Shown here: one piece after another, positions 3,974 through 44,175 of the stretch | Numbering within the stretch: position 1 is the first letter of the stretch | Layout of the letters: every line of letters starts with the position of its first letter | DNA from: a virus | Taxonomy: Duplodnaviria; Heunggongvirae; Uroviricota; Caudoviricetes | Direction: 5' to 3' (one strand) | Virus record (IMG/VR): IMGVR_UViG_2541047752_000007 | Coordinates: 1 to 52,139 of that record | DNA: 52,139 nt | Made by a program: the position numbers and the translations under genes | Notes under the pieces: generated by a model | Databases searched by the model: none | Told to the model about the DNA's origin: nothing | The model's input: the letters and a program-made list of their open reading frames with translations, nothing else

Positions 3974-3991
3974 TATGTCATTACCTCCGGT

Positions 3992-7696: not shown

Positions 7697-7821
7697 TAAG
7701 GTAAGTGCCTTTTTGTGCCTTCCGTTATCTTTTTCCTTGCGTCTTTGCAAGTATGGCCTTACCTTGTCTGCAAGTTTACAAAATGGAATTTTAAGATCAA
7801 GGCTTAAAATACACGTTTTGT

Positions 7822-7850
7822 GACTTGCATCAAACTTTTTGAGGTTATAG
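7822..7850 (+). promoter_or_regulatory. weak PRM-like promoter for the repressor gene, possibly leaderless mRNA
   Basis: GTGACT-N18-TTATAG ending about 9 nt before the cI ATG at 7860; no SD upstream of ATG. Confidence 0.3.
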
Positions 7851-7859
7851 GGTAGCGAC

Positions 7860-8507
7860 ATGAAAACAAAATGGTATGACTTAGCAAAGCAGCTCATGCG
7901 GGCGCAGGGCATGAGCCAGGATTCGCTCGCGGATCGTATGGGGATAACTAAAGGCGGCCTGTCACACTGGCTGAACGGTCGCCGAGAGCCAAATCTTGAA
8001 GATATTGCGCGGATTATGCGCGAGCTTGGTCGTCGGCAGTTTACTGTTACACATGATGGCATGGTCATTGATGATTCTGTTTCTAATACACTTCAGGCCG
8101 TGCCGCCGCGTGATTTAGGTAGTTACCCGGTTATTGACTGGAAGGACACAGTAAACAATATGGATGACGCAAGGCGTTCAGCATTACGACACGTTACGAC
8201 TAGCGTTATTTGTTCAGATGACAGTTACTGGCTGGTTGCCAAAGGTGAATCAATGAACGCGCCGCAGGGGTTGAGCATCCCGGCGGGGACGATGATACTT
8301 GTGGACCCGCACGCGCCAGCTATTGACGGCAAACTGGTTATAGCCCAGCTTGAGGAAGGGCAGATACCGACGTTTAAACAGTTGATTATTGATGGAGGTC
8401 AAAGGCTTTTACGTTCGCTCAATCCGCTGTATCCGCCAATCCCTATGAATCCAGAATCAAAAATTATAGGCGTGGTGGTTGATGCGAAGATCGTAAACCT
8501 GCCATAA
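7860..8507 (+). CDS. CI-like phage repressor (HTH_XRE plus S24 LexA-like peptidase)
   Basis: 215 aa; N-terminal HTH MSQDSLADRMGITKGGLSHWLNGRR; C-terminal GESM (Ser) and VVDAK (Lys) autocleavage dyad. Confidence 0.85.
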   Translation: MKTKWYDLAKQLMRAQGMSQDSLADRMGITKGGLSHWLNGRREPNLEDIARIMRELGRRQFTVTHDGMVIDDSVSNTLQAVPPRDLGSYPVIDWKDTVNNMDDARRSALRHVTTSVICSDDSYWLVAKGESMNAPQGLSIPAGTMILVDPHAPAIDGKLVIAQLEEGQIPTFKQLIIDGGQRLLRSLNPLYPPIPMNPESKIIGVVVDAKIVNLP

Positions 8508-8538: not shown

Positions 8539-8630
8539 CCTGGAAAACACCAAAACGTAAACAGAAAACGTTATTTATTATTTAAATATCAATGGCATAT
8601 AAAATATTTTAAAAAAGTATACAAAATGGA

Positions 8631-8659
8631 TTGACTCGATGTTTTACGGGGCGTATATT
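8631..8659 (+). promoter_or_regulatory. strong sigma70-like promoter (pL-like) for rightward early operon
   Basis: TTGACT-N17-TATATT; immediately preceded by the recurring tatacaaaatgga motif. Confidence 0.55.
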
Positions 8660-8701
8660 GCGAGTCAAAGGAAGGGCGCAGGTAACAAAAGCAACTTCCT
8701 G

Positions 8702-9007: not shown

Positions 9008-9298
9008 ATGAGCGTTACAATTATATATGGTAAATGTGATAGCAAAATGAATGCCAGGGAACGCAGAAGGATAAAAAGAGAAAACGAAAGAAAATCATCA
9101 CCTGCAATCAATAAAACAGACAATGTGGATAAAGCTATTCGATTTGCAAACGAGGAAAGATGCAAACCAAATAGCATTAAAGAACGTCGCAAAGGATCAG
9201 TAAAATGGTATACGGAAAATGAAAGCGGCAGCTACTACCACGCAACGCAACCACGCCATTTAGGGGAAAAACCCCTGGATAAAGTCCGCTACCATTAA
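9008..9298 (+). CDS. basic protein with arginine-rich N-terminal motif, possible N-like antiterminator
   Basis: 96 aa; NARERRRIKRENERK resembles an arginine-rich RNA-binding motif; first gene after promoter and long leader. Confidence 0.35.
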   Translation: MSVTIIYGKCDSKMNARERRRIKRENERKSSPAINKTDNVDKAIRFANEERCKPNSIKERRKGSVKWYTENESGSYYHATQPRHLGEKPLDKVRYH

Positions 9299-14925: not shown

Positions 14926-15501
14926 GTGTCCTTGCAAACAGGCTTGATGGTAAGTGTGATAACGAATCACTACTACGCGCGGCGGGGTATCATAAAAATG
15001 GAAAGGGTGACAATTGACAGGTTATTGGCCTGCATTTATGTCGCCGTTTTCGTGATCATTAACCTTATTGTTAACCACTGCGGCCCGTGGGTAATTCCGA
15101 TCACCACGGTAGCCGCCGTGTGCGTCAATATGATGATCCGTGACTTCCTGTTATATGACGGCGGCCTGAAATGGTCGGCTACAACATGCGCCGCCGCTGG
15201 CGCAATCACGGTGCTGATAAACTACGATGCCGGGATGGTGGCGATCGCGTCATTCGTCGCGGTTGTTTCCGGTGCGCTTATTTCTGGCGGTGTTTACCGG
15301 ATTTTACCTGGCGATTTCGATTCAAAACGCTGGCCTGCGAATATAGCGTCCGCCATTGGTGATGCGTTAATTTTTCCCACGCTATCGTTTATGGCATTTA
15401 TGCCGGAAATATCAGCTATGCAATTCATCTCAAAAATGGCGGCTGTAACGGTGATCACTATCATCATTCGTCGCTATTTTACGTTCGAGGGTAGGAAATG
15501 A
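14926..15501 (+). CDS. integral membrane protein (4-5 predicted TM helices)
   Basis: Hydrophobic segments throughout; likely start ATG 14998 (MERVTIDRLL). Confidence 0.5.
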   Translation: MSLQTGLMVSVITNHYYARRGIIKMERVTIDRLLACIYVAVFVIINLIVNHCGPWVIPITTVAAVCVNMMIRDFLLYDGGLKWSATTCAAAGAITVLINYDAGMVAIASFVAVVSGALISGGVYRILPGDFDSKRWPANIASAIGDALIFPTLSFMAFMPEISAMQFISKMAAVTVITIIIRRYFTFEGRK

Positions 15502-16262
15502 GTGGGCTTAGAAATTGGGTGGTGTGGTCGCTGTACGACGGCAGCGGGTACGCCGTTAAAGATTGGGCCGACGCTGGCTATAAGTGTTATTGTTTCAATT
15601 ATGACGGCGCTAATCATGGCGATTATGAAGGCGTCAAGATCATTCATCCTAACATTGAATATGTCAACGTATGGATTGACAGCCATTTCCTGGTAATGTT
15701 CTCCCCTGAATTGTCTGTTTATCCAGATCCTGACATTATCCTGGGCTTTCCTCCGTGCGACGATCTTGCGGTGTCCGGCGCTCGTTGGTTTTCAAGCAAG
15801 CGTGAAAAAGATCCTTACTTCCAGCAGAAGGCGGCATACAACGCAAAACTGGTAGAAACGCTTGCTGACATGTACCACGTCCCGTGGATGGTGGAAAACC
15901 CGGTTGGAGCACTGTCAACGTTATGGCGTAAGCCGGATTTCATTTTTAATCCGTGCGCTTACGGTGGCTACCTGCCGGAAGATGATAAGCATCCAGCTTT
16001 CCCGGAATACATCGCCGACCGCGACGCCTACACGAAGAAAACTTGTATCTGGTGCGGCAACGGATTTAAACAGCCGCTATTTCGGCCTGTACCAATGCCT
16101 GATGAGTGGGAAGATAGTAAGCAGCACGCGAAGTTAGGCGGGAAGTCGAAGCGCACTAAGATGATCCGCTCACTCACGCCGCGAGGATTCGCCCGTGCTG
16201 TATTCCTGGCTAATGACCGGGCAATCACGCGGACTACTCTTAACCGCGTTTTACCGGATTGA
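15498..16262 (+). CDS. compact DNA cytosine-5 methyltransferase-like protein
   Basis: 254 aa; motif I-like SLYDGSGY, PC motif GFPPCDDLAVSG, ENV motif WMVENPVG; no obvious target-recognition domain. Confidence 0.5.
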   Translation: MSGLRNWVVWSLYDGSGYAVKDWADAGYKCYCFNYDGANHGDYEGVKIIHPNIEYVNVWIDSHFLVMFSPELSVYPDPDIILGFPPCDDLAVSGARWFSSKREKDPYFQQKAAYNAKLVETLADMYHVPWMVENPVGALSTLWRKPDFIFNPCAYGGYLPEDDKHPAFPEYIADRDAYTKKTCIWCGNGFKQPLFRPVPMPDEWEDSKQHAKLGGKSKRTKMIRSLTPRGFARAVFLANDRAITRTTLNRVLPD

Positions 16263-16422
16263 TGTTTACAAAATGGCGTCATTGTGTGATGTGGATCACA
16301 TAATGGCGCTTTATTGTTTGTTCGCATGTATCCGTTTTGTATACTTCAAACAAACAAAATGCTCTTTAAAAATCCGGTAACGCTGAAATGCGTAAAAATC
16401 ACCTGAAAAAGGAGAGAGCATT

Positions 16423-36556: not shown

Positions 36557-36976
36557 TTATTTGATTCTAATAATATCAATAAACCCGTTACCCAAATCTA
36601 CAATTGCGTAATTTTTTGCGCCCGCGCCGCCTTCATTAAAAATTCTTTCCGCGAAAGCAACTTTATTTGCCTTGCACTCGTTTGCTATCCTGTTTTTTAT
36701 TTCGCTATTATTTTCAAAGACTACGCCTACAGCAGCCTCGTTTACAAGGCCATAATTAAACCAGCGAGCATAAACTGGTTTACCTTCAAATTTTTTATCA
36801 ATTGCCTTAAAAAGAATTGCTGGCGCGGCTGGTTCTTTTTTGATCATGTCGTGATATGCTGCTACATGGTTTGCCACTTCTTCACAGTTAATGCTTATGG
36901 CCTCGTTAGCGTTCGCGTTAAATGCGAGTGCGGCAATCACAGTAAGTGCCATTTTTGCTAACCGTTTCATAATCAA
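36557..36976 (-). CDS. secreted (signal-peptide) protein, reverse-strand moron
   Basis: 139 aa; N-terminal MKRLAKMALTVIAALAFNANA signal peptide; convergent with chaperone gene. Confidence 0.5.
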   Translation of the reverse strand: MIMKRLAKMALTVIAALAFNANANEAISINCEEVANHVAAYHDMIKKEPAAPAILFKAIDKKFEGKPVYARWFNYGLVNEAAVGVVFENNSEIKNRIANECKANKVAFAERIFNEGGAGAKNYAIVDLGNGFIDIIRIK

Positions 36977-37200
36977 CTCCTACCGCTTATTATGATTTGC
37001 TAAATTCTTCCTTTAACTTATTTATACACGCATATTGTTTATTTTTTAAGTGCTTTTAACATTTCTTCGATGAAATCCGCATAGCGTTCATGTTCGTTGG
37101 GGCGGTAGTTTGCGTTTTTCATTTTCTTGTCCCCTTTTGCTTCCTCCGGTTAATCCGGCCTTTTAAATCCATTTGCTCTATCCCTTCCCTTTAGCTTCTT

Positions 37201-37240
37201 TATACAAAATGTATTCGTTGAAATGAAGCCATTTTGTATA
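37201..37240. repeat. perfect 11-bp inverted repeat upstream of tape measure gene
   Basis: tatacaaaatg - 18 bp spacer - cattttgtata; 40 bp upstream of TMP start. Confidence 0.8.
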
Positions 37241-37279
37241 AAATAGAGGCATACATCACATTCTGCATGAGGTTAAATC

Positions 37280-39619
37280 ATGGCTACCAGTGTAGGTACA
37301 ATTTATTACGAAGTTGATGCGAAAACTGGTCAACTTCTCGTTGCACAACGACAGGCAGACCAGGCCTTTGATCGTATAGAGCGCGGCGCAAAACAGGCTG
37401 ACCGCCAGGTAAACACCCTGAAAACATCCATCAAGGCACTGACCAGGGTTATCCATTTGCTAATTGCTGCCGAGGCTGTGCGCCAATTTATGGATATGGC
37501 GGAGCAAGCAAAAATGCTTCGCGTAAAAATCAAAATGCTTACGGGCGATGCAGAGTCCGCCGGACGGGTTTTTGACGGCCTGAAAGCAATATCCAGGGAG
37601 ACGGGTCAGAGCCTGAAGGATACTGGCGAACTATGGCAAGGCCTGGCTATCTCACTGAAGAACACGTCAGCTACCGAAGGTCAATTACTTAACCTTGTCG
37701 GCACTATTCAGAAAATGGGGGCGTTAGGCGGTGCGTCAGCAGAGCAAATGTCAAACTCTATGCGCCAGTTCCGCCAGTCTATAGACGGCGGCGTGCTGCG
37801 TGCTGAAGAATTTAACAGCCTACTTGAAAACACCCCGACCATCGTACAAACAATGGCCCGCCATATGGGATTATCAATGGGCCAGTTCCGCGCCGAAATG
37901 CTGGACGGTAAGATCACGGCAGAAAGGATGGTTAACGCAATCCAGGCGGCTACGCAGGAAACAAACGAGAAGTTTGCGCAGTTGCCGCGCACATCCGGCA
38001 CGGCTATCAATGAACTAAAAGTCGAGGTAATGGGTCTGGTGGAACAACTGGACGATCTTTTCGGTGTATCAGATGGCGTAGTCTCAGCTATCGACTTGAT
38101 CACAAAAGGAGTTAATGGGCTAGGTGAGGGCGCTAAATTCGCTAAAACCTGCTTTGATACGCTCAAAACGGCTGGTAGCGAATTCATCGACATGTTTGAT
38201 GATGTGGCTGTGAAGGCTGGCGAGGTGGCAGAGAAGATCATCGCAATGGTGACGCCAATCAAGGCGCTAATGGATGGCTATAAATGGATGAAAGAGATTG
38301 TCGATGAACGCAAGGAAGAACTAAACAGCAACAACGAGAAAAAATTTGGCCCTACCATCGGTAAATTCATGACGTTTAAAAACGACATTGAAAAGGCGAC
38401 CGCCGCTTATGACGAGCTTATGCAGAAACAGGCAGAAGCCAACGACGGAGCTATTACCGGATTCGATAAGCCAGTTGATAAGCCGAAAAAACAGAAAAAA
38501 GAGAAGAAATCGGAAGCTGATCGGCTTGGAGACAAGGGCATAAGCGTTTCTGATCAGTACAACAAAGACGCCGCCGCCATGCGCAAAGCGTTAGAGAACG
38601 GCAAGGCCATTGATGCTGCGTTCGCCCAGGGTAAAATCACACTCCTTGAGTACCGCGCCGCGCAAAAAGGGATCGGCAAGGAGCTGAAAGAAGAATTAGC
38701 GCAGATCCCGGTAGATGAATTGCGTGATAAATGGTCGCAAATAGTTAGCCCAATGGACCAGCTAAAAGGCGAAGTTGACCCTATCCAGCAGGCGCAAAAT
38801 GAATGGGCCGTCCGTAAGCAAATGCTTATCGACCTGGGCGCTACAGAAGCACAACAGAAACAGGAATTATTAGCCTATGAGCAGCAGATCCGCGATCTGA
38901 AGTGGGAACAGTGGCAGGCGCAAAGCCAGACAAACGGCCTGATCGGTGATTGCGTTAATGGCCTTAAAGGTGGCATGAGCAATGCGCTTGTTGGCCTGCT
39001 TAACGGTACTCAATCATTGAGCGATGTTTTTGCTAACTTAGGCAGCAATATACTTGGGAATATCGGTAACAGACTTTCGGACATAGCTGCCAACTGGATA
39101 GCAGATCAAATCATGATGGAGACACAAAGCAAAGCCACGCAGGCCAGCACAACGGCAAGCGCGGTTGCCGCTCAGGGAAGCATTGCTGCGGCGGCGGCCC
39201 CGGCGGCGGCAGCGACAGCGGCATCAACTGGCGGTAGCTGGGCGGCGGCTGGCTCGGCGGCGCTTACTGCGATCATGTCGCTGGCAACATCCATTTTCGG
39301 CGGCGGGCGCTTTAATGGTGGTAGCGTAATTGGTGGCAATATGTACCGCGTCGGGGAACATAACAGGCCGGAGCTATTCCAGACGTCTAACGGCAACCAA
39401 TACATGATCCCCGGCGAGAATGGCAGGGTTATCCCGGGCCGTGATATTGGCGGCGGCGGCGGTATCAGTATGCCTGTTTACATCGACATTCAAACCACAA
39501 ACGGATTTAGTGACGAAGACAGCCGCAGACTTGAACAGACAATGGAACGTGTAGCCATGAAAATGATAACAAGGGAATCGCAAAGACCTGGCGGGATGTT
39601 GCAACCGCGCCGCAAATAA
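37280..39619 (+). CDS. tail tape measure protein (lambda H-like)
   Basis: 779 aa; coiled-coil, Ala/Gly-rich C-terminal region; position. Confidence 0.85.
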   Translation: MATSVGTIYYEVDAKTGQLLVAQRQADQAFDRIERGAKQADRQVNTLKTSIKALTRVIHLLIAAEAVRQFMDMAEQAKMLRVKIKMLTGDAESAGRVFDGLKAISRETGQSLKDTGELWQGLAISLKNTSATEGQLLNLVGTIQKMGALGGASAEQMSNSMRQFRQSIDGGVLRAEEFNSLLENTPTIVQTMARHMGLSMGQFRAEMLDGKITAERMVNAIQAATQETNEKFAQLPRTSGTAINELKVEVMGLVEQLDDLFGVSDGVVSAIDLITKGVNGLGEGAKFAKTCFDTLKTAGSEFIDMFDDVAVKAGEVAEKIIAMVTPIKALMDGYKWMKEIVDERKEELNSNNEKKFGPTIGKFMTFKNDIEKATAAYDELMQKQAEANDGAITGFDKPVDKPKKQKKEKKSEADRLGDKGISVSDQYNKDAAAMRKALENGKAIDAAFAQGKITLLEYRAAQKGIGKELKEELAQIPVDELRDKWSQIVSPMDQLKGEVDPIQQAQNEWAVRKQMLIDLGATEAQQKQELLAYEQQIRDLKWEQWQAQSQTNGLIGDCVNGLKGGMSNALVGLLNGTQSLSDVFANLGSNILGNIGNRLSDIAANWIADQIMMETQSKATQASTTASAVAAQGSIAAAAAPAAAATAASTGGSWAAAGSAALTAIMSLATSIFGGGRFNGGSVIGGNMYRVGEHNRPELFQTSNGNQYMIPGENGRVIPGRDIGGGGGISMPVYIDIQTTNGFSDEDSRRLEQTMERVAMKMITRESQRPGGMLQPRRK

Positions 39620-39624
39620 CACTA

Positions 39625-39650
39625 AGGCCGCTATAAGCGGCCTTTATTTT
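39625..39650. terminator. bidirectional rho-independent terminator after tape measure gene
   Basis: aggccgc-tataa-gcggcct followed by ttatttt; between convergent genes. Confidence 0.55.
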
Positions 39651-39756
39651 ACATGGTAAGGATATAAATTAAACAGCACAGGAATGCGGGCGCGGCGAAG
39701 TCGCAAACGCTAGCCATATTCCATGCTTTTGGTAAAAAACCACCATACCACGGCAT
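39649..39756 (-). CDS. small hydrophobic peptide (35 aa)
   Basis: MPWYGGFLPKAWNMASVCDFAAPAFLCCLIYILTM; GGAGGG about 12 nt upstream; C-terminal part of ORF-track 39649-39840. Confidence 0.3.
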   Translation of the reverse strand: MPWYGGFLPKAWNMASVCDFAAPAFLCCLIYILTM

Positions 39757-39799
39757 TCTTTCTCGTTTCCCTCCGCAAAATTCCGCTATGTAACGATAT

Positions 39800-39934
39800 T
39801 CAGCCTGTGTGTTCCCGCGCAAAAAAGAATGTACATCCAATCAGGCCGCCAGTGAGATAATCGCCAGTAAGCAGGCCGATAACAACCTGTATAGTCGCCG
39901 CAGCCAGTGCGTGACCAATAACGGTTAAATCCAT
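39800..39934 (-). CDS. small glycine-zipper membrane peptide (44 aa)
   Basis: Hand-translated MDLTVIGHALAAATIQVVIGLLTGDYLTGGLIGCTFFFAREHTG; GGGAGGA RBS 7 nt upstream. Confidence 0.4.
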   Translation of the reverse strand: MDLTVIGHALAAATIQVVIGLLTGDYLTGGLIGCTFFFAREHTG

Positions 39935-39936
39935 CG

Positions 39937-40122
39937 TTAATCCTCCCGATCGTTCTCAAATGTGCCATCTACAAATTTTTGCAGCCCGGCGATAAGTTGT
40001 GTTGCCTGCGATTTTTCAATCACTATGGTTTCAGTCCCCATAAGTTCGGTTATCCACAGCCGACCATCCTCATCAAGATCTAACCTAACTCCGTAACATA
40101 ACTCTGTTTCGTCAATAATCAT
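39937..40122 (-). CDS. hypothetical acidic protein
   Basis: 61 aa; stop overlaps start of the 44-aa peptide gene. Confidence 0.4.
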   Translation of the reverse strand: MIIDETELCYGVRLDLDEDGRLWITELMGTETIVIEKSQATQLIAGLQKFVDGTFENDRED

Positions 40123-40231
40123 TTTTCCTCCTATAATCTTCCGTTACGTGCGACGTAACCCCTGCCGAACATCACTAACCAGATGTTCCAGATCTCCCGC
40201 TAGGTATATTTCTCCTCCTCCATATTCCACC

Positions 40232-40486
40232 TCACTTATGAGCGCCTTTCACTCCGCAATGACGGTTGTATTCCAGGTGATCGATAATTAACCAAATATT
40301 CAAATCTTCACTGAACAGCCGCCAGTCAGGATTGATATCGAATTTAAAGCCATAACCATCACGTAATTTTTTGGGGCGGGCTTCTTTTTTCAGGAAGGCG
40401 TTAAGCAACTTCTTGCCTTTCTTGATTACCCGTTCCTGTGCATTCTTTTGTGCTTTCAGGTTTTTTTCGATAGTTACCAGTTTCAT
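40232..40486 (-). CDS. hypothetical basic protein (84 aa)
   Basis: Lys-rich N-terminal half; possible toxin-like fold but no confident family. Confidence 0.4.
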   Translation of the reverse strand: MKLVTIEKNLKAQKNAQERVIKKGKKLLNAFLKKEARPKKLRDGYGFKFDINPDWRLFSEDLNIWLIIDHLEYNRHCGVKGAHK

Positions 40487-40503
40487 AACTCACCCCATCG
40501 TCC

Positions 40504-40659
40504 TTAGTTAAGCGCCCTCAGGAAGAAATCCCGGTATTCATCATCCTTCGCGTTCATCATGAATTGACCGTATTTGAATGCGTCGTCGAAACCCTTAACA
40601 ATTGCTACTTCCACTTGCTCGAATGCGTTGTTTAGCATCACTACTACATAGCTACTCAT
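40504..40659 (-). CDS. hypothetical small protein (51 aa)
   Basis: Hand-translated MSSYVVVMLNNAFEQVEVAIVKGFDDAFKYGQFMMNAKDDEYRDFFLRALN; 17 nt upstream of the 84-aa gene. Confidence 0.35.
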   Translation of the reverse strand: MSSYVVVMLNNAFEQVEVAIVKGFDDAFKYGQFMMNAKDDEYRDFFLRALN

Positions 40660-40772
40660 TTTTGGGCCTCACTTGCTGGTACCGCTTTTCTTCTTGCTTC
40701 CTGTATACAGCTTGTTGCTTCATGTGTGAATCCATATTGTAAACTAGCTATAATTCTTGTGATGAATATCTC

Positions 40773-40796
40773 ATTTTTCGCGTAGAAGCGCGTAAA
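40773..40796 (+). promoter_or_regulatory. conserved 24-bp motif upstream of tail gene M (copy 2)
   Basis: atttttcgcgtagaagcgcgtaaa, followed by tatacaaaatgtaa motif and RBS. Confidence 0.5.
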
Positions 40797-40830
40797 GATA
40801 TATACAAAATGTAACTTACAGGAGGGGGGT

Positions 40831-41184
40831 ATGCCGGAAGTGTTCAGATGGACACCACAGAGAAGCTACAGCGTAAACAGTGAGCCTAACGTGTCCGTTA
40901 TCAAGCTGGGCGATGGCTATGAACAGCGCCAGACAAAAGGGATTAATCCACTACTTGACAGCTATACGCTGGTCTTTAAAGGTACGAGCGCCGGATGCGG
41001 TGACGCCGGAAACGTGGCGCTCCAGGTTGACGCATTTTTAAGAGCACGTTGCGCGGTCGAGGCGTTTTACTGGACGCCATCTACAGACGGAGTGAAAAGG
41101 CTTTTTGTATGCCGAAAGTGGAGCATGGCGAAAGACGGCCCGGTATGCACTCTGAATGCAACGTTTGAACAAGTTATCAATTAA
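40831..41184 (+). CDS. M: minor tail protein M
   Basis: 117 aa; FRW, GDGYEQRQ, FEQVIN align with remembered lambda gpM. Confidence 0.8.
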   Translation: MPEVFRWTPQRSYSVNSEPNVSVIKLGDGYEQRQTKGINPLLDSYTLVFKGTSAGCGDAGNVALQVDAFLRARCAVEAFYWTPSTDGVKRLFVCRKWSMAKDGPVCTLNATFEQVIN

Positions 41185-41197
41185 TGGAGAAGTCAAT

Positions 41198-41383
41198 ATG
41201 TATGCTATTTGTGTAGTTGACCGCACGGGCGCTTTTACATTATTTGACGACTATGAAATCAAAGATCTTACCGTAAAGGCTGACAATGGCGAGATCTGGT
41301 ATCTTCATGACGTTGGTGACGGGTATGTCGGATGCAGATCGAGAGAGGGTAGGGAAGTTTTATTCTTGCTTGATGGCGTATAA
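41198..41383 (+). CDS. hypothetical small protein
   Basis: 61 aa from MYAICVVDR; GGAGA RBS. Confidence 0.4.
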   Translation: MYAICVVDRTGAFTLFDDYEIKDLTVKADNGEIWYLHDVGDGYVGCRSREGREVLFLLDGV

Positions 41384-41412
41384 ACACTACCCCGCGCGAA
41401 GCGGGGTTATTA

Positions 41413-41529
41413 TTATTCCATTTCCATTAACGCTATATTTTCCGCTATCGTTTTCCAGTCCAGATCTACAGCATGAACACCAAATACTATCAATCCCATT
41501 GCGATTAGTGCTAAAACTTCGATTTTCAT
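41413..41529 (-). CDS. small single-TM peptide (38 aa)
   Basis: MKIEVLALIAMGLIVFGVHAVDLDWKTIAENIALMEME; GAGG RBS. Confidence 0.35.
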   Translation of the reverse strand: MKIEVLALIAMGLIVFGVHAVDLDWKTIAENIALMEME

Positions 41530-41541
41530 AATCAACCTCAC

Positions 41542-41622
41542 TTAATTAAGAAAGGCATAAACGATGACAATCGCGCCAGCCACTACCAAAACGTTTTCGA
41601 TTACTTCGTCCACTCTATTCAT
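41542..41622 (-). CDS. small single-TM peptide (26 aa)
   Basis: MNRVDEVIENVLVVAGAIVIVYAFLN; start shares a base with upstream stop. Confidence 0.3.
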   Translation of the reverse strand: MNRVDEVIENVLVVAGAIVIVYAFLN

Positions 41623-41825
41623 TAAGGTAACTCCACTTCATTAAATGTAACAAGCACCCCTTGATTTTCTTTATTTATAATTATGAAGGCATTAATTGAA
41701 GGCAGACATCTTTCCACGCGGTAAACGTCACCAATATCTAAACTGTAATATTCTGTTAATTCTCTATTGTTCCCTTTAGCAAAACCCGTAAACCTAACCA
41801 TTCCTTGACCGTCGTACTTTAACAT
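41622..41825 (-). CDS. hypothetical protein
   Basis: 67 aa ORF in moron operon. Confidence 0.4.
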   Translation of the reverse strand: MLKYDGQGMVRFTGFAKGNNRELTEYYSLDIGDVYRVERCLPSINAFIIINKENQGVLVTFNEVELP

Positions 41826-41833
41826 ATACAGTC

Positions 41834-42082
41834 CTATAGGCTATCACGCAGATAATTAACGCCCTTATCAGTGACGAATGAATGATTAACCTGGTTTTCA
41901 TCCGTCATGATGATGAATAACTTTTCCTGTAGGTATTTCGCTTTCGGGTACAGCGTTAAGCAGACCTGGTACAAAATCCCGCGCTCAATCAGCAAATCAA
42001 TAAATTCGTGCTCATGATAACCGATAAGGCGGGCGGCCTGCTTCAACGTGTACACATAATCACTGTGATTGCGCCGCGCCAT
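41834..42082 (-). CDS. putative HTH DNA-binding protein
   Basis: 82 aa; YTLKQAARLIGYHEHEFIDLLIERGIL helix-turn-helix-like. Confidence 0.4.
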   Translation of the reverse strand: MARRNHSDYVYTLKQAARLIGYHEHEFIDLLIERGILYQVCLTLYPKAKYLQEKLFIIMTDENQVNHSFVTDKGVNYLRDSL

Positions 42083-42090
42083 ATTGCCAC

Positions 42091-42438
42091 CTATTTGTCG
42101 AACGCTCCAAGATTATCTATACAGAAATCCTTTGCCGCTTTTTCGTATTCGCGTTTTGCTTGCGGATCGTCAGCCGGGAAACCTTTTGCGTGTATTTCAC
42201 CAGGGCAAGACTGATCCATAGAGTCTGCAAAATTAACATTGAAGTTAACATTAATATCTTTCGGGTTCATATCTTCCACCTCATCAACTATCTGTACCGG
42301 ATTAGCAGCATATTTCACTGGATGGCCTAAACTACATTCAAGAATCCTGCCTTCTTCCAGGGCTACTTCTTCGCTATCAAATAATCCGAAACACTCCTTT
42401 CTGCCACTTAACCACACATCAAGACTGTATTTTTTCAT
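42091..42438 (-). CDS. hypothetical protein (about 115 aa from MKKYSL)
   Basis: ORF-track 42091-42540; internal start chosen to avoid long overlap. Confidence 0.4.
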   Translation of the reverse strand: MKKYSLDVWLSGRKECFGLFDSEEVALEEGRILECSLGHPVKYAANPVQIVDEVEDMNPKDINVNFNVNFADSMDQSCPGEIHAKGFPADDPQAKREYEKAAKDFCIDNLGAFDK

Positions 42439-42606
42439 TTTTGTTAGCCTCATATTTGACAGGTTCGATCTGGTATCCCAAAAGGCGGTCATCCTCAACA
42501 AGTAAAAGCGCGTCAACCAATGCTTCCCCCTCGTCGTCATACAGGGCGATAACCTTTTCCCTACCGTCTGTCATGAATGCCGTCAACTTCCATAGCTTTT
42601 CAGTCA
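42419..42606 (-). CDS. hypothetical small protein (62 aa)
   Basis: MTEKLWKLTAFMTDGREKVIALYDDEGEALVDALLLVEDDRLLGYQIEPVKYEANKNEKIQS; GGAGGTG RBS; first gene of moron operon. Confidence 0.45.
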
Positions 42607-42736
42607 TAACGCACCTCCGCGCCATTTTGTTAACTCCTCCTTCGTTTGAGTAAAATATACATATTGTAAAAACCACGATCAATCCATTTTGGTATGATTT
42701 GGCGTGACGCAGATCACAAAATGACAAGGTGAGAAA

Positions 42737-43441
42737 ATGCGCAATATTCCGAGAGAGATGATTATTGATTCCGTCGATGCCGGAGTTGGCGCGGTCATTG
42801 ACTTATTTGAACTGGACCTTACTCCCCTGGGAGGCGAGGTTATCCGCTTCCATTCCGGCGCGAACGGCTATTACGGCCAGGTTATCTGGAAGGGAGTAGC
42901 TTACAACAGCTACCCGATCGAGGCGACGGGCTTCGAAATGAAAAATGAGGGTGTTTATTCGCGGCCTCAAATGATTGTAGCCAATATCGGCGGACTCATT
43001 ACGGGGATGAACAACGATTTTAACGACCTTAGAGGAATGAAGGTTACGCGCCGCCAGGTGGAGGTGAAATATCTTGACGCCGTTAACTTCCCTAACGGTA
43101 ATCCAGACGCAGATCCATCTATTGAGGCTGTATCTTTTTACGTCGTTGAAGCAATGAGCGAAGAAACAGCGGATCAGGTGCAGTATGAACTGTCAACGCC
43201 AATTGATGCAGATAAAGCTGTCATCCCTGGGCGCACCATCCTTGCTGACGTTTGCCAGTGGCAATACAGAGGCGACGGGTGTATGTACGCTGGCGGACCA
43301 GTAGCAAACGATAAAGACGAGCCGACAAGCGATCCTAAAGCCGACAGATGTAGCCACCGTCTGAGCGGTTGTCGTTTACGTTTCCCGCGTCCAAATCCGT
43401 TACCAATTTCCTGTTTCCCCGGTTCAAGTAAGGTGGGCTAA
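42737..43441 (+). CDS. L: minor tail protein L
   Basis: 234 aa; LDLTPLGGE, ARFLDAVNFxNGN-like YLDAVNFPNGN, AVIPGRTILADVCQWQYRGDGC align with remembered lambda gpL. Confidence 0.85.
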   Translation: MRNIPREMIIDSVDAGVGAVIDLFELDLTPLGGEVIRFHSGANGYYGQVIWKGVAYNSYPIEATGFEMKNEGVYSRPQMIVANIGGLITGMNNDFNDLRGMKVTRRQVEVKYLDAVNFPNGNPDADPSIEAVSFYVVEAMSEETADQVQYELSTPIDADKAVIPGRTILADVCQWQYRGDGCMYAGGPVANDKDEPTSDPKADRCSHRLSGCRLRFPRPNPLPISCFPGSSKVG

Positions 43442-43443
43442 TT

Positions 43444-44175
43444 ATGGCACTTGAAGACAAAATGGTTCGCTACGCCGCAGCTCACCCGCGTGAGGAAGTT
43501 TGCGGCCTGGTGATAAATAACGAATATTTTTACCCGTGCGCTAACGTATCTGAAACGCCATACAACAGCTTCAAAATTTCGCCGGACGATTACATCAAAG
43601 CTGACGAATTAGGCGTTATAACCGCCGTTTTTCACTCTCACGTTGATGATATTCCGGTATTGTCTGCGCTGGATCGACAACAACAGGTTATTTCCGGCCT
43701 CCCGTGGCTTTTATGTTCCGGTGGCAGGGTTAGAAAATTCCGCCCGGTAGCGCACCTGTTAGGCCGAAAATTTGAGCACGGGAAAACAGACTGCTACGCG
43801 CTTTTCCGCGACGCATATCACCTTTGTGGCGTGGATCTGCCGGACTTCGAGCGCCTTGATGGCTGGTGGCTTCGCGGTGAAAACCTGTATTTAAAAAACT
43901 TGCCGCGAAACGGGTTTTATCAGGTTGATGCGCAAAGCATCCAGCCAGGTGACGTAATAATCAGGCAGCCGTTCAAAGGCGCTGACCCATGCCACGCGAT
44001 GATTTACCTGGGCGATAACACTGTTTTGCATCATGACAATGCCGGACTGTTAAGCCGCCGCGAGCAAATGCGGCCCGCTTATGTTCGACAAACGCATTCA
44101 ATATGGAGATCTGATAAATGCTCAAATTTAGATTTACGGGCAATCTTCGAAGATATTACAGCAAAGTGTGTTTAA
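43444..44175 (+). CDS. K: tail assembly protein K (MPN/JAB plus NlpC/P60-like)
   Basis: 243 aa; HSH.D metal motif, downstream Cys/His region; position after L. Confidence 0.8.
   Translation: MALEDKMVRYAAAHPREEVCGLVINNEYFYPCANVSETPYNSFKISPDDYIKADELGVITAVFHSHVDDIPVLSALDRQQQVISGLPWLLCSGGRVRKFRPVAHLLGRKFEHGKTDCYALFRDAYHLCGVDLPDFERLDGWWLRGENLYLKNLPRNGFYQVDAQSIQPGDVIIRQPFKGADPCHAMIYLGDNTVLHHDNAGLLSRREQMRPAYVRQTHSIWRSDKCSNLDLRAIFEDITAKCV

What the first reader, a model, noticed from the sequence alone, without database searches (positions are those of the whole stretch)
41413..42727. Reverse-strand six-gene moron operon inserted between tail genes M and L
In lambda, M and L are adjacent. Here about 1.5 kb separates them and carries co-directional, tightly packed minus-strand genes: a 62-aa protein (strong GGAGGTG RBS), a roughly 115-aa protein, an 82-aa HTH-like protein, a 67-aa protein and two tiny TM peptides. 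A promoter-like TTGATC-N17-TATATT lies on the minus strand near 42650-42690, again preceded by ccaaaatgga. An independently transcribed cassette inside the tail operon is a classic moron locus, where lysogenic-conversion, defense or anti-defense genes reside; none of the products matches a family I can name.
Basis: partly seen in the sequence, partly recalled or inferred. Interest (0 to 1): 0.7.

Follow-up and report, generated by a model that had tools for sequence, protein, structure and literature searches.

The report
Reverse-strand accessory operon inside tail genes
A six-gene operon on the opposite strand, with its own promoter, sits between tail genes M and L of an mEp021-type E. coli phage; it is real and present in every relative examined, but apart from one KilAC-domain gene its products have no known relatives and their function is untested.

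Summary
Six tightly packed minus-strand genes (62, 115, 82, 67, 26 and 38 aa) lie between M and L, with Shine-Dalgarno sites, a conserved sigma-70-type promoter and a terminal hairpin.

The window is an mEpimmI (mEp021-like) coliphage. All 44 related phage and prophage loci that span the M-L interval carry the core 62-aa/115-aa/82-aa genes at this spot. All but one sequence type end with tiny membrane peptide(s). The 67-aa gene and other inserts come and go.

All genes except the 26-aa peptide are clearly under purifying selection (dN/dS 0.11-0.28). The closest outgroup, Salmonella phage S137, has M and L adjacent. So this is a lineage-specific insertion that became fixed, not a sporadic moron.

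- The 82-aa protein is a stand-alone KilAC domain.
- The 62-aa protein is a paralogue of the N-domain of the 115-aa protein. Both are hypervariable.
- The C-domain of the 115-aa protein is nearly invariant. In unrelated ~120-kb phage contigs it occurs alone, next to the same membrane peptide.
- The promoter is a paralogue of the phage's early rightward promoter and has a conserved CRP-like site upstream.

The best reading is a self-transcribed conflict or host-manipulation module. Its function and expression timing are inferred, not shown. Interest is moderate.

The parts
42704..42718 (-). CRP-like site TGTGA-N6-TCAC(g), centred about 61.5-63.5 nt upstream of the predicted transcription start
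   Evidence: the pattern has 4 matches in the window vs 0.36 expected; the half-sites are invariant at 4/5 and 3/4 columns in 34 distinct sequences, while the 6-nt spacer is invariant at only 1/6. Binding by CRP is inferred from the consensus, not tested.
42654..42682 (-). Sigma-70-type promoter TTGATC-N17-TATATT; predicted start near 42647
   Evidence: -10 invariant 6/6, -35 5/6; promoter plus leader aligns over about 75 nt with the early rightward promoter at 8618-8690 (score 44 vs 16.6 +/- 2.3 in shuffles).
42651..42668 (.). 18-bp near-palindrome TACAATAT-GT-ATATT(T/G)TA overlapping the -10. It is a candidate operator, and it also creates a -10-like hexamer on the plus strand.
   Evidence: unique in the window (0.02 expected); 15/18 columns invariant. 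It is a perfect 8+8 palindrome in the mEp021 subgroup; plus-strand TTGTTA-18-TAAAAT at 42627-42656.
42622..42634 (-). Leader copy of the recurrent motif GTWTACAAWATGG (here GTTAACAAAATGG)
   Evidence: 28 matches vs 6.0 expected in the window, mostly intergenic; 11/13 columns invariant.
42419..42607 (-). p62: 62-aa acidic protein (pI 4.4), a beta-beta-alpha-beta domain, paralogue of the N-domain of p115; hypervariable
   Evidence: phrog_29559; BLASTP E=4e-5 vs p115 N-terminus; 16 clusters only; dN/dS 0.28; mean pairwise distance 0.30; natural fusion with p115 in P0054.
42091..42438 (-). p115: 115-aa acidic protein. It has a hypervariable N-domain (res 1-50), a mosaic linker, and a nearly invariant C-domain (res 71-115; C78 and C106 invariant, H83 nearly invariant).
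   Evidence: N-domain pLDDT about 90, C-domain 45-64; orphan: 14 hits in 1.84 billion representatives; dN/dS: N 0.23, C 0.08.
42091..42270 (-). Possible internal translation product of p115 (59 aa, from Met57), equal to the stand-alone C-domain proteins of other phages
   Evidence: the GGTGGAA core of an SD-like motif, (A/G)AGGTGGAA-N3-ATG in most, is kept at synonymous sites in 13 of 14 distinct sequences; stand-alone homologues start at the equivalent Met (MKYDIDN...). Inference only.
41834..42082 (-). p82: stand-alone KilAC/ANT domain protein, highly conserved
   Evidence: PF03374, E=3.2e-7, above cutoff; phrog_5689; 35-38% identical to C-terminal domains of Rha/Ant proteins of Vibrio and Cronobacter phages; dN/dS 0.11; distance 0.056. 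The TDKG motif matches the 'TxKG' noted for KilAC proteins.
41622..41825 (-). p67: 67-aa accessory protein of unknown function, present in only about a quarter of related loci
   Evidence: 10-11 loci; dN/dS 0.19; phrog_14327, E=1.5e-5; no phage-record or PDB match.
41542..41622 (-). tm26: 26-aa hydrophobic peptide, start overlapping the p67 stop
   Evidence: 23-26-aa versions in several loci; Kyte-Doolittle 17-residue maximum 2.3. Coding support is weak.
41413..41529 (-). tm38: 38-aa single-helix membrane peptide with an acidic tail (38- or 45-aa forms in relatives)
   Evidence: dN/dS 0.17, 31 loci; hydrophobicity 2.55; 36 clusters only; a homologue directly follows the stand-alone p115 C-domain in ~120-kb phage contigs.
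41389..41407 (.). GC-rich hairpin shared by the convergent M-g70 transcript and the cassette (bidirectional terminator-like)
   Evidence: (-16.5/-16.7 kcal/mol; the U-run is better on the plus strand); annotated as a bidirectional terminator in mEp021.
41198..41383 (+). g70: 61-aa acidic plus-strand gene after M, convergent with the cassette. It belongs to the M-L insertion but to the late operon.
   Evidence: phrog_3249; mEp021_70; dN/dS 0.13. Any role as a late-expressed partner of the cassette is speculation.

Best explanation
This is a self-contained accessory operon embedded antisense in the tail-gene cluster. It is a hallmark of the mEpimmI (mEp021-like) coliphage family.

Transcription. 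Host RNA polymerase starts near 42647 from a conserved sigma-70 promoter. That promoter is a duplicate of the phage's early rightward promoter. It carries a CRP-like site about 62 nt upstream and an 18-bp palindrome over its -10. Transcription runs leftwards through six genes to the hairpin at 41389-41407. When antiterminated late transcription crosses the region from the other side, it should collide with and be antisense to the cassette. That is the 'non-contiguous operon' logic shown for Tai/Ati in phage phi80.

Products. They are not virion parts. I read them as a conflict or host-manipulation module with a toxin-antitoxin-like or sensor-effector design.
- Effectors: the stand-alone KilAC protein p82 and/or the tiny membrane peptides. 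The KilAC domain family elsewhere blocks cell division or the SOS response.
- Constant partner or adaptor: the nearly invariant Cys/His C-domain of p115. It may also be made alone from an internal start.
- Specificity elements: the hypervariable beta-beta-alpha-beta domains, p62 and the p115 N-domain.

Shown: the genes, signals, conservation, paralogy, domain mosaicism and gene linkage. Inferred: promoter activity, CRP control, timing, protein partners and the biological role.
For: - Real genes under purifying selection; operon-like packing and SD sites.
- Fixed position in all 44 related loci that span the M-L interval, with variable internal slots. Absent from the closest outgroup tail module.
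- Promoter conservation pattern, with half-sites versus spacer of the CRP-like site. Unique palindrome over the -10.
- Paralogy of promoter plus leader with the early promoter.
- p82 is KilAC. A solo KilAC protein, CreP, is a bacteriostatic division inhibitor (bioRxiv 10.1101/2024.01.05.574328). The AriS KilAC domain inhibits SOS (PMC9043618).
- p62 is a paralogue of the p115 N-domain, and the two are naturally fused in P0054.
- The N-domains are 5-7 times more divergent than neighbouring genes, with high synonymous divergence too. The p115 C-domain and p82 are nearly invariant.
- The stand-alone C-domain plus a tm45 homologue are adjacent in an unrelated phage background.
- All but one sequence type of the cassette end with a tiny hydrophobic peptide.
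- The neighbouring minus-strand cassette is a ParE-like toxin module with the same promoter-adjacent motif.
- Precedents for defence genes set against the late operon: PMC11364771. Precedent for a moron in the late operon with a late-expressed counter-protein: PMC10884400.
Against: - There is no expression, binding or phenotype data of any kind.
- No match to any PADLOC defence model, NCBIfam model or solved structure.
- Homology of the promoter to the early promoter may mean the cassette is repressed in lysogens and acts early in infection. That fits host takeover or anti-defence better than prophage-encoded defence.
- The C-domain of p115 is predicted with low confidence, so a partner-binding role is a guess.
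- In the ~120-kb contigs the C-domain/tm45 pair occurs without any KilAC gene, so KilAC need not be the partner.
- N-domain divergence shows no co-variation with the adjacent tail proteins. That argues against one attractive target model.
- The hairpin's U-run on the cassette strand is weak.
Confidence: 0.5

Rival explanations
1. Early host-takeover or anti-defence operon with an autoregulator, organised like an anti-CRISPR/Aca operon. The promoter fires as soon as DNA enters. The variable acidic small proteins (p62, p115, optional cargo) neutralise host defences or host functions. The conserved HTH-like p82 binds the palindrome over the -10 and shuts the operon down. In the lysogen the unit is kept off together with the early promoters.
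For: - Promoter plus leader is a paralogue of the early rightward promoter that drives the N-like gene.
- The architecture is 'variable small acidic genes followed by a highly conserved DNA-binding-type gene'.
- An invariant palindrome overlaps the -10.
Against: - The fold hits are not significant.
- KilAC domains characterised so far act on cell division or SOS, not as operator-binding autorepressors.
- The conserved membrane peptides and the C-domain/peptide pair are not explained.
- The CRP-like site suggests host-state control, which is unusual for an immediate-early anti-defence unit.
- The sister cassette with the same upstream motif is a ParE-like toxin module, a kind normally expressed in lysogens (established knowledge of prophage TA modules).
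Confidence: 0.25
2. Secondary immunity or antirepressor region, analogous to immI of P22, which also lies among late genes. p82 would be a minimal antirepressor or SOS modulator that tunes the lysis-lysogeny switch or prophage induction. p62 and p115 would be its regulators. CRP would feed nutritional state into the decision.
For: - p82 belongs to the domain family found in P1 Ant/KilA-type antirepressors. mEp021_71 is annotated 'putative antirepressor'.
- The KilAC domain of AriS down-regulates SOS and so prophage induction.
- The recurrent motif GTWTACAAWATGG links the cassette promoter with the regions flanking the CI-like repressor gene.
- There is a CRP-like site.
Against: - p82 lacks the N-terminal domains (AntA/B, Bro-N, Rha) present in the antirepressor-family proteins that carry a KilAC domain. 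In AriS the N-terminal domain carries the phage-gene-regulating activity.
- Nothing explains the hypervariability of p62 and the p115 N-domain when the repressor is about 96% conserved across the group.
- The membrane peptides are unexplained.
Confidence: 0.12
3. Superinfection-exclusion unit in which the tiny inner-membrane peptides are the active parts and block DNA entry of related phages, as HK97 gp15 does. The soluble proteins would be accessory or unrelated cargo.
For: - At least one small hydrophobic peptide ends nearly every version of the cassette.
- The location in the tail cluster matches HK97 gp15, a moron encoding a single-pass membrane exclusion protein (PMC3430355, cited; details from my own knowledge).
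- tm38 is under purifying selection.
Against: - The most conserved and always-present genes are the soluble ones.
- The group already has characterised Lpp-type exclusion lipoproteins (PMC11893012).
- There is no homology to gp15/YebO-type proteins.
- Peptides of 24-26 aa that end inside the membrane look more like small toxins than like receptor blockers (inference).
Confidence: 0.1
4. Tail-assembly or virion accessory genes that merely happen to be on the other strand.
For: The cassette has a conserved position within the tail module in every relative.
Against: - The strand is opposite to the late operon, with a separate sigma-70 promoter and a hairpin.
- The cassette is absent from the closest outgroup with a homologous tail tip.
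- It includes a KilAC domain, and two of its products are hypervariable while M and L are nearly constant.
- It contains optional inserts, including an HNH gene.
Confidence: 0.03

Closest known systems
Morons of temperate phages (Hendrix/Juhala definition; examples: lambda bor, HK97 gp15, JBD26 tab)
   Same: The extra DNA lies between two genes that are adjacent in related phages (lambda, S137). It has its own promoter-like and terminator-like signals and a lower G+C, and it sits inside the late/tail region. Its products are unrelated to virion building.
   Different: It has six genes rather than one. It is fixed in every member of the family rather than sporadic, and it holds variable sub-slots inside. 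Its promoter is a duplicate of the phage's own early promoter. Expression from the prophage is not shown.
Tai/Ati 'non-contiguous operon' of phage phi80 (PMC11364771) and Tab/anti-Tab of JBD26 (PMC10884400)
   Same: Like tai, the unit is set in the opposite orientation inside the late operon, so late transcription can switch it off. As with Ati and anti-Tab, a small co-directional late gene (g70 here) lies right next to it and could serve as a counter-partner. (tab itself is a moron within the late operon, between the terminase genes; the passages read do not give its orientation.)
   Different: No sequence or fold similarity was found to anything known. Tai and Tab were not directly compared because their sequences are not in the tools used. 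The location differs (phi80: near Q and packaging; JBD26: between the terminase genes). No evidence points to a tail protein as target (no co-variation). The lysogen expression shown for Tai and Tab is untested here.
KilAC/ANT domain proteins: P1 KilA, phi11 Gp07, Listeria AriS, and the stand-alone CreP of Acinetobacter baylyi
   Same: p82 passes the Pfam KilAC threshold and carries the TxKG motif. Like CreP (103 aa), it consists of the KilAC domain alone.
   Different: p82 is shorter (82 aa) and only about 35% identical to its nearest phage KilAC domains. It sits in an operon with orphan proteins rather than next to a CRISPR-like repressor RNA. Toxicity, FtsZ or RecA effects are untested.
Type II toxin-antitoxin and TA-like abortive-infection modules (the ParE-like module in the neighbouring cassette is one)
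   Same: It is a small operon of acidic proteins followed by potentially toxic products, with a palindrome over the -10 typical of autoregulation. A sister cassette 1.5 kb away with the same upstream motif encodes a ParE-like toxin.
   Different: No component matches a known toxin or antitoxin family except, loosely, KilAC. The unit has three to six genes instead of two, and which product is toxic is unknown.
Anti-CRISPR/Aca operons
   Same: A strong promoter with an inverted repeat is followed by small variable acidic genes and then a conserved helix-turn-helix-type gene.
   Different: No homology to any Acr or Aca was detected with the libraries at hand. The conserved gene is KilAC, which I do not know to be an Aca family (my own recall, not checked). 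Membrane peptides are part of the unit.

Membership tests
Moron (independent accessory transcription unit in a phage genome) | Present between two genes that are adjacent in related phages | tested here: met
   M and L are adjacent in Salmonella phage S137, the closest outgroup (L 69.5% id). They are also adjacent in lambda (established knowledge). Within the mEpimmI family, however, the insertion is fixed (all 44 related loci that span the interval).
Moron (independent accessory transcription unit in a phage genome) | Own promoter and own terminator | tested here: inconclusive
   There is a conserved sigma-70-like promoter and a GC-rich hairpin. The U-run on the cassette strand is weak, and neither signal has been tested for activity.
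Moron (independent accessory transcription unit in a phage genome) | Nucleotide composition differing from the surrounding genome | tested here: met
   G+C is 0.382 (41501-42000) and 0.432 (42001-42500), against about 0.45-0.51 in the adjacent tail-gene windows (41001-41500 0.456; 42501-43000 0.476; 43001-43500 0.508) and about 0.46 across the window. The GC skew is reversed.
Moron (independent accessory transcription unit in a phage genome) | Expressed from the repressed prophage and beneficial to the lysogen | not testable with these tools
   This needs RNA-seq or reporter assays on a lysogen. Promoter paralogy with the early promoter leaves the question open.
KilAC/ANT domain (PF03374), for p82 | Profile match above the curated threshold over most of the domain | tested here: met
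   31.1 bits vs cutoff 25.3, E=3.2e-7; residues 7-82 match profile positions 20-105 of 108. tblastn hits fall on C-terminal parts of Rha/Ant proteins.
KilAC/ANT domain (PF03374), for p82 | Conserved 'AKxLxL' and 'TxKG' motifs described for CreP/KilA | tested here: inconclusive
   TDKG is present (residues 71-74). The first motif appears only loosely, as AARLIG. No alignment with CreP or KilA was made because their sequences are not held.
KilAC/ANT domain (PF03374), for p82 | Growth/division inhibition or SOS inhibition on expression | not testable with these tools
   Experimental property; for the precedents.
Defence/counter-defence non-contiguous operon (Tai/Ati type) | Gene(s) in opposite orientation interrupting the late operon | tested here: met
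Defence/counter-defence non-contiguous operon (Tai/Ati type) | Homology to a known defence protein | tested here: not met
   There were no PADLOC hits for any product. PADLOC v2.0.0 dates from 2023, before the Tai and Tab papers read here, so it probably lacks them; they were not directly compared.
Defence/counter-defence non-contiguous operon (Tai/Ati type) | Adjacent late-operon gene that neutralises the defence protein | tested here: inconclusive
   A candidate exists (g70, 41198-41383, phrog_3249), but nothing links it functionally to the cassette. Its divergence is uncorrelated with the p115 N-domain (r=0.01).
Class I CRP-activated promoter | TGTGA-N6-TCACA site | tested here: met
   TGTGATCTGCGTCACg matches 9 of 10 core positions. 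The half-sites are conserved and the spacer is free.
Class I CRP-activated promoter | Site centred near -61.5 (or one or more helical turns further upstream) | tested here: inconclusive
   The centre falls at -63.5 if transcription starts 7 nt after the -10. It is -62.5 in the subgroup with a 1-nt deletion. It depends on an unmapped start site.
Type II toxin-antitoxin operon | Adjacent antitoxin and toxin genes from recognised families | tested here: not met
   Only the neighbouring cassette has a recognised toxin (ParE_like PF24732). In this cassette, p62, p115, p67 and the peptides had no significant family match. The p62/p115 profile shows no similarity to the 51-aa gene upstream of ParE.

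The most novel reading that the evidence does not exclude
A previously unrecognised modular phage conflict system. Interchangeable beta-beta-alpha-beta 'sensor' domains (p62, p115 N-domain) are coupled through a constant Cys/His C-domain to small effectors: a stand-alone KilAC division/SOS inhibitor and micro membrane peptides. The C-domain would also be made alone from an internal start. The whole unit is wired antisense into the tail operon, under CRP control and an operator shared with the phage's early promoters, so that host state and late transcription gate it. The C-domain/peptide pair in unrelated ~120-kb phages would then be the minimal core of a wider family.
Probability: 0.2. Interest if true: 0.75.

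Novelty: new variant of a known kind. Interest (0 to 1): 0.45.

Why it matters
mEpimmI phages are reported to be as common as lambdoid phages in a collection from human faeces (PMC11893012). This cassette is one of their family-defining features that has no assigned role.

If it is a defence, exclusion or host-control module, three things follow:
- It adds new protein families (the p62/p115 domain, the p115 C-domain, the tm38/45 peptides) to the catalogue of phage conflict genes.
- It gives a second natural setting for stand-alone KilAC proteins.
- It provides another example of genes gated by being placed against the late operon.

The work also supplies concrete, cheap experiments on phages that are in hand (mEp021 and its relatives grow on E. 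coli K-12). If the cassette proves dispensable and silent, it is simply conserved cargo of unknown use.

Tried and rejected
- **Family searches.** Pfam, NCBIfam, PADLOC and PHROGs on all products gave only KilAC for p82 and unnamed PHROGs for the rest.
- **PDB sequence searches** for p115, p82 and p67 found nothing meaningful.
- **Profile search** of the p115 family against 1.84 billion representatives returned only the family itself and fragments.
- **N-domains tracking the phage's own tail proteins.** I tested whether the variable N-domains co-vary with M, L, the tape-measure C-terminus or g70. Distance-matrix correlations for the p115 N-domain were 0.01-0.16, so this idea was rejected.
- **Hidden paralogues.** I tested whether the small acidic neighbours (51-aa and 61-aa genes of cassette 1, g70) are paralogues of p62/p115. 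hhalign probabilities were at most 1.2%, so this was rejected.
- **Rfam**, over the whole window at gathering threshold and over 39500-43000 at E<=1, found nothing.
- **Exact repeat of 'ccaaaatgga'.** It occurs once only; the real recurrence is CAAAATGGATTGA at 8622.
- **The recurrent motif as a -35 element** (TTTACA). I rejected this by inspection, because no -10 follows at 16-18 nt at the exact copies.
- **The palindrome as a LexA box.** I rejected this by inspection: it has CAAT...ATTG, not CTGT...ACAG.
- **Upstream in-frame ATG at 42625 as the p62 start.** This is unlikely, because in other loci it opens a 7-codon mini-ORF or is out of frame.
- **Literature.** The text and supplements of the mEpimmI paper do not mention gp70-74.
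Full report
**What is there.** The window is a phage or prophage of the mEpimmI (mEp021-like) group. The M-L region is 83-87% identical in DNA to mEp021, mEp010/013/044/515/554 and MagusPhagus, and a similar cassette is found in 35 of 5,426 complete E. coli genomes. The tape-measure gene (37280-39619), M (40831-41184, PF05939) and L (42737-43441, PF05100) are on the plus strand.

Between M and L lie 1552 bp. They hold a plus-strand 61-aa gene (g70, 41198-41383), a GC-rich hairpin (41389-41407) and six minus-strand genes:
- p62 (42607-42419)
- p115 (42438-42091)
- p82 (42082-41834)
- p67 (41825-41622)
- tm26 (41622-41542)
- tm38 (41529-41413)

Each gene has an SD-like motif, and several overlap or abut, which suggests translational coupling. 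The only omissions are g70 and the fact that p82 can be named.

**Are they genes?** I collected 42 IMG/VR loci with the p115 family, plus mEp021, MagusPhagus and an E. coli N25 prophage, and mapped all genes by tblastn. Nei-Gojobori estimates gave these dN/dS values:

| Gene | dN/dS |
|---|---|
| p62 | 0.28 |
| p115 | 0.23 |
| p82 | 0.11 |
| p67 | 0.19 |
| tm38 | 0.17 |
| L | 0.05 |
| M | 0.08 |

. So these are protein-coding genes under purifying selection. tm26 rests on too few sequences to judge.

**Conservation and variability.** The p62-p115-p82 core sits between L and g70/M in every related locus that spans the M-L interval (44 of 44). The odd one out, L045, is a different ~120-kb phage. 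Variable slots exist:
- a 77-79-aa gene (mEp021_72 type) or an HNH endonuclease between p115 and p82
- p67 after p82, in about a quarter of loci
- the 3' end, which carries a 24-aa peptide (MCEHYVLEMIIIIIGLLCILLSTL), a 23-26-aa peptide, a 38/45-aa peptide, or two of them

All but one sequence type of the cassette end with at least one tiny hydrophobic peptide.

In the closest outgroup by L (Salmonella phage S137, 69.5% identical), M and L are 35 nt apart. The cassette is therefore a lineage-specific insertion that became a fixed family feature. The mEpimmI paper lists a 'KilAC-like antirepressor' among manually defined core genes and says nothing more about these genes (PMC11893012).

**The proteins.**
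- *p82* is a stand-alone KilAC/ANT domain (PF03374, above threshold). Its nearest non-family relatives are the C-terminal domains of Rha/Ant proteins of Vibrio and Cronobacter phages, at 35-38% identity.
- *p62 and the first ~50 residues of p115* are paralogues (BLASTP E=4e-5). AlphaFold gives the p115 N-domain a confident beta-beta-alpha-beta fold (pLDDT about 90), whereas the C-terminal 45 residues are poorly predicted.
- *A natural 172-aa fusion* of a p62-like domain with p115 exists at the same locus in another prophage (P0054). It models as two tandem beta-beta-alpha-beta domains.
- *p62, tm38/45 and p67* are equally narrow.

**Mosaic evolution.** Mean pairwise amino-acid distance over 43 loci:

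| Region | Distance |
|---|---|
| p115 N-domain | 0.395 |
| p62 | 0.302 |
| p115 C-domain | 0.067 |
| p82 | 0.056 |
| L | 0.053 |
| M | 0.094 |

. Synonymous divergence is also highest in the N-domain (pS 0.64 vs 0.42 in the C-domain). This looks like old allelic types being shuffled, not simple decay.

Recombination breakpoints fall at the domain junction. One example is E. coli strain 127, where megablast similarity starts at about residue 52 of p115. N-domain divergence does not track the flanking tail proteins (r at most 0.16).

The C-domain has invariant C78 and C106 and a nearly invariant H83.

**A linked pair in other phages.** In unrelated ~120-kb phage contigs, a 60-64-aa protein consisting of the p115 C-domain alone is immediately followed by a 47-aa homologue of tm45. 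It starts at the residue equivalent to Met57 (MKYDIDN...). A more distant 56-aa C-domain-like protein in a third phage type is followed two genes later by a 42-aa membrane peptide. This is the best evidence for a functional link between the C-domain and the peptide.

In p115 itself, Met57 is nearly invariant. It is preceded by an SD-like motif whose GGTGGAA core is kept at synonymous positions in 13 of 14 distinct sequences, as (A/G)AGGTGGAA-N3-ATG in most. An internal start that yields the C-domain alone is therefore plausible, but it is an inference.

**Signals.** The promoter TTGATC-N17-TATATT (42682-42654) is individually unremarkable by consensus, since the region has as many promoter-like hits as shuffles. 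Three things support it:
- *Conservation in 34 distinct sequences*: -10 invariant at 6/6, -35 at 5/6, while the first five spacer bases are 0/5.
- *An 18-bp near-palindrome over the -10*, TACAATAT-GT-ATATT(T/G)TA. It is unique in the window and invariant at 15/18 columns.
- *Homology to the early rightward promoter.* Over about 75 nt, promoter plus leader aligns with the early promoter at 8618-8690. That promoter lies downstream of the CI-like repressor gene (7860-8507) and upstream of an arginine-rich N-like gene (9008-9298).

Upstream lies TGTGATCTGCGTCACg (42718-42703). Its half-sites are conserved and its spacer is free. It is centred about 61.5-63.5 nt from the predicted start, so it resembles a class I CRP site. 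CRP binding is inferred.

The hairpin at 41389-41407 is stable on both strands, but its U-run is better for the plus-strand M-g70 transcript.

**A recurrent motif.** GTWTACAAWATGG has 28 matches with at most 2 mismatches, against 6.0 expected. More than half are in the roughly 10% of the window that is non-coding. Its positions:
- It abuts the -35 of the early promoter and of both minus-strand cassette promoters.
- It flanks the repressor gene.
- It often occurs as inverted pairs 29-30 or 68 nt apart: 16264/16332, 37200/37229, 40732/40800 and 49990/50020.

I could not identify the binding protein. Candidates are the CI-like repressor, another phage regulator or p82. This bears directly on whether the cassette is on or off in lysogens, and I leave that open.

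**Interpretation.** The shown facts fit an autonomous accessory operon set against the late operon. Three published KilAC studies suggest what p82 could do:
- A stand-alone KilAC protein, CreP, is a bacteriostatic division inhibitor (bioRxiv 10.1101/2024.01.05.574328).
- The KilAC domain of Listeria AriS blocks the SOS response (PMC9043618).
- The KilA-C part of phi11 Gp07 inhibits growth (PMC5944126).

The neighbouring minus-strand cassette (39649-40742) is a ParE-like toxin module (PF24732) with the same promoter-adjacent motif. Precedents exist for conflict genes placed in or against the late operon, with a late-expressed counter-partner next to them: Tai/Ati in phi80 (PMC11364771) and Tab/anti-Tab in JBD26 (PMC10884400).

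My best reading, at 0.5, is a toxin-antitoxin-like or sensor-effector conflict module:
- effectors: p82 and/or the peptides
- constant partner: the p115 C-domain
- specificity elements: the variable beta-beta-alpha-beta domains

The main rival, at 0.25, is an early anti-defence or host-takeover operon autoregulated by p82 through the palindrome. The promoter's kinship with the early promoter favours it. An antirepressor/immI-like role (0.12), a pure membrane-peptide exclusion role (0.10) and a structural role (0.03) follow.

**Verdict.** The 'moron' interpretation is partly supported: the cassette is an independent, compositionally distinct, lineage-specific insertion, but it is fixed and multi-gene, and its expression timing is unknown.

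It is a new variant of a known kind. The genes are already deposited as hypothetical proteins in published genomes, but they are uncharacterised. Interest is moderate (0.45). Every mechanistic step is inferred, yet the locus has several unusual and testable features, and the phages are available.

Noticed in passing
window 39624-40830 (minus-strand genes 40504-40659, 40232-40486, 39937-40122): A second minus-strand cassette lies between the tape-measure gene and M. It holds a 51-aa gene, an 84-aa ParE-like toxin (PF24732, E=9e-11; RefSeq 'ParE family toxin-like protein') and a 61-aa gene, and it is bounded by a bidirectional hairpin at 39624-39644. It is conserved in nearly all related loci. 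Its promoter region shares AGTTTACAATATGGATTCAC with the early promoter.
   Followed up: partly
window, 28 sites; exact copies at 3990, 7774, 8617, 16264 (+) and 40732 (-): The recurrent motif GTWTACAAWATGG has 28 matches vs 6.0 expected and is mostly intergenic. It often forms inverted pairs 29-30 or 68 nt apart. It abuts the -35 of the early rightward promoter and of both reverse cassettes, and it flanks the CI-like repressor gene. The binding factor is unknown.
   Followed up: partly
window 16264-16344: A perfect CRP-type palindrome TGTGATGTGGATCACA (16285-16300) is flanked by an inverted pair of the recurrent motif, in an intergenic gap after the ORF 15498-16262. It may be a regulatory node (late-gene control?).
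   Followed up: no
window 36557-36970 (-) and 37200-37241: A third minus-strand ORF (137 aa, no Pfam or PHROG match) lies just upstream of the tape-measure gene. An inverted motif pair sits in the divergent gap. So the tail cluster appears to be interrupted three times by reverse-strand units.
   Followed up: no
window 41198-41383 (+): g70 is a 61-aa acidic gene (phrog_3249, mEp021_70) after M and convergent with the cassette. It is absent from lambda. It is a possible late-operon partner of the cassette, by analogy with Ati and anti-Tab, but nothing tested supports this.
   Followed up: partly
window 42627-42656 (+): A plus-strand promoter-like site TTGTTA-18-TAAAAT has a -10 that overlaps the cassette's -10 inside the palindrome. 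The gap could therefore be a back-to-back bidirectional promoter that restarts transcription toward L. It could equally be a by-product of the palindrome.
   Followed up: no
L045 3471-3801; L049/L050 4001-4349: In ~120-kb phage contigs unrelated to mEpimmI, a stand-alone homologue of the p115 C-domain (60-64 aa) is directly followed by a 47-aa homologue of the tm45 peptide. The pair lies within a long run of small same-strand genes.
   Followed up: yes
L024 (between p115 and p82); L001 7083-7649 (mEp021_78): HNH endonuclease genes are inserted at different points of the tail region in some relatives: inside this cassette in L024, and between I and J in mEp021. This suggests homing-endonuclease traffic in the module.
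   Followed up: no
window 7769-7829: A large imperfect inverted repeat (27-nt arms, 70% complementary) lies immediately upstream of the CI-like repressor gene. Each arm contains a copy of the recurrent motif. It is probably the main operator region.
   Followed up: no
RefSeq annotation of p62 homologues (e.g. WP_085654716.1): The 62-aa soluble acidic protein is named 'transporter' in RefSeq and nr. Nothing in the sequence supports that name: it has no hydrophobic segment and no family match.
   Followed up: partly
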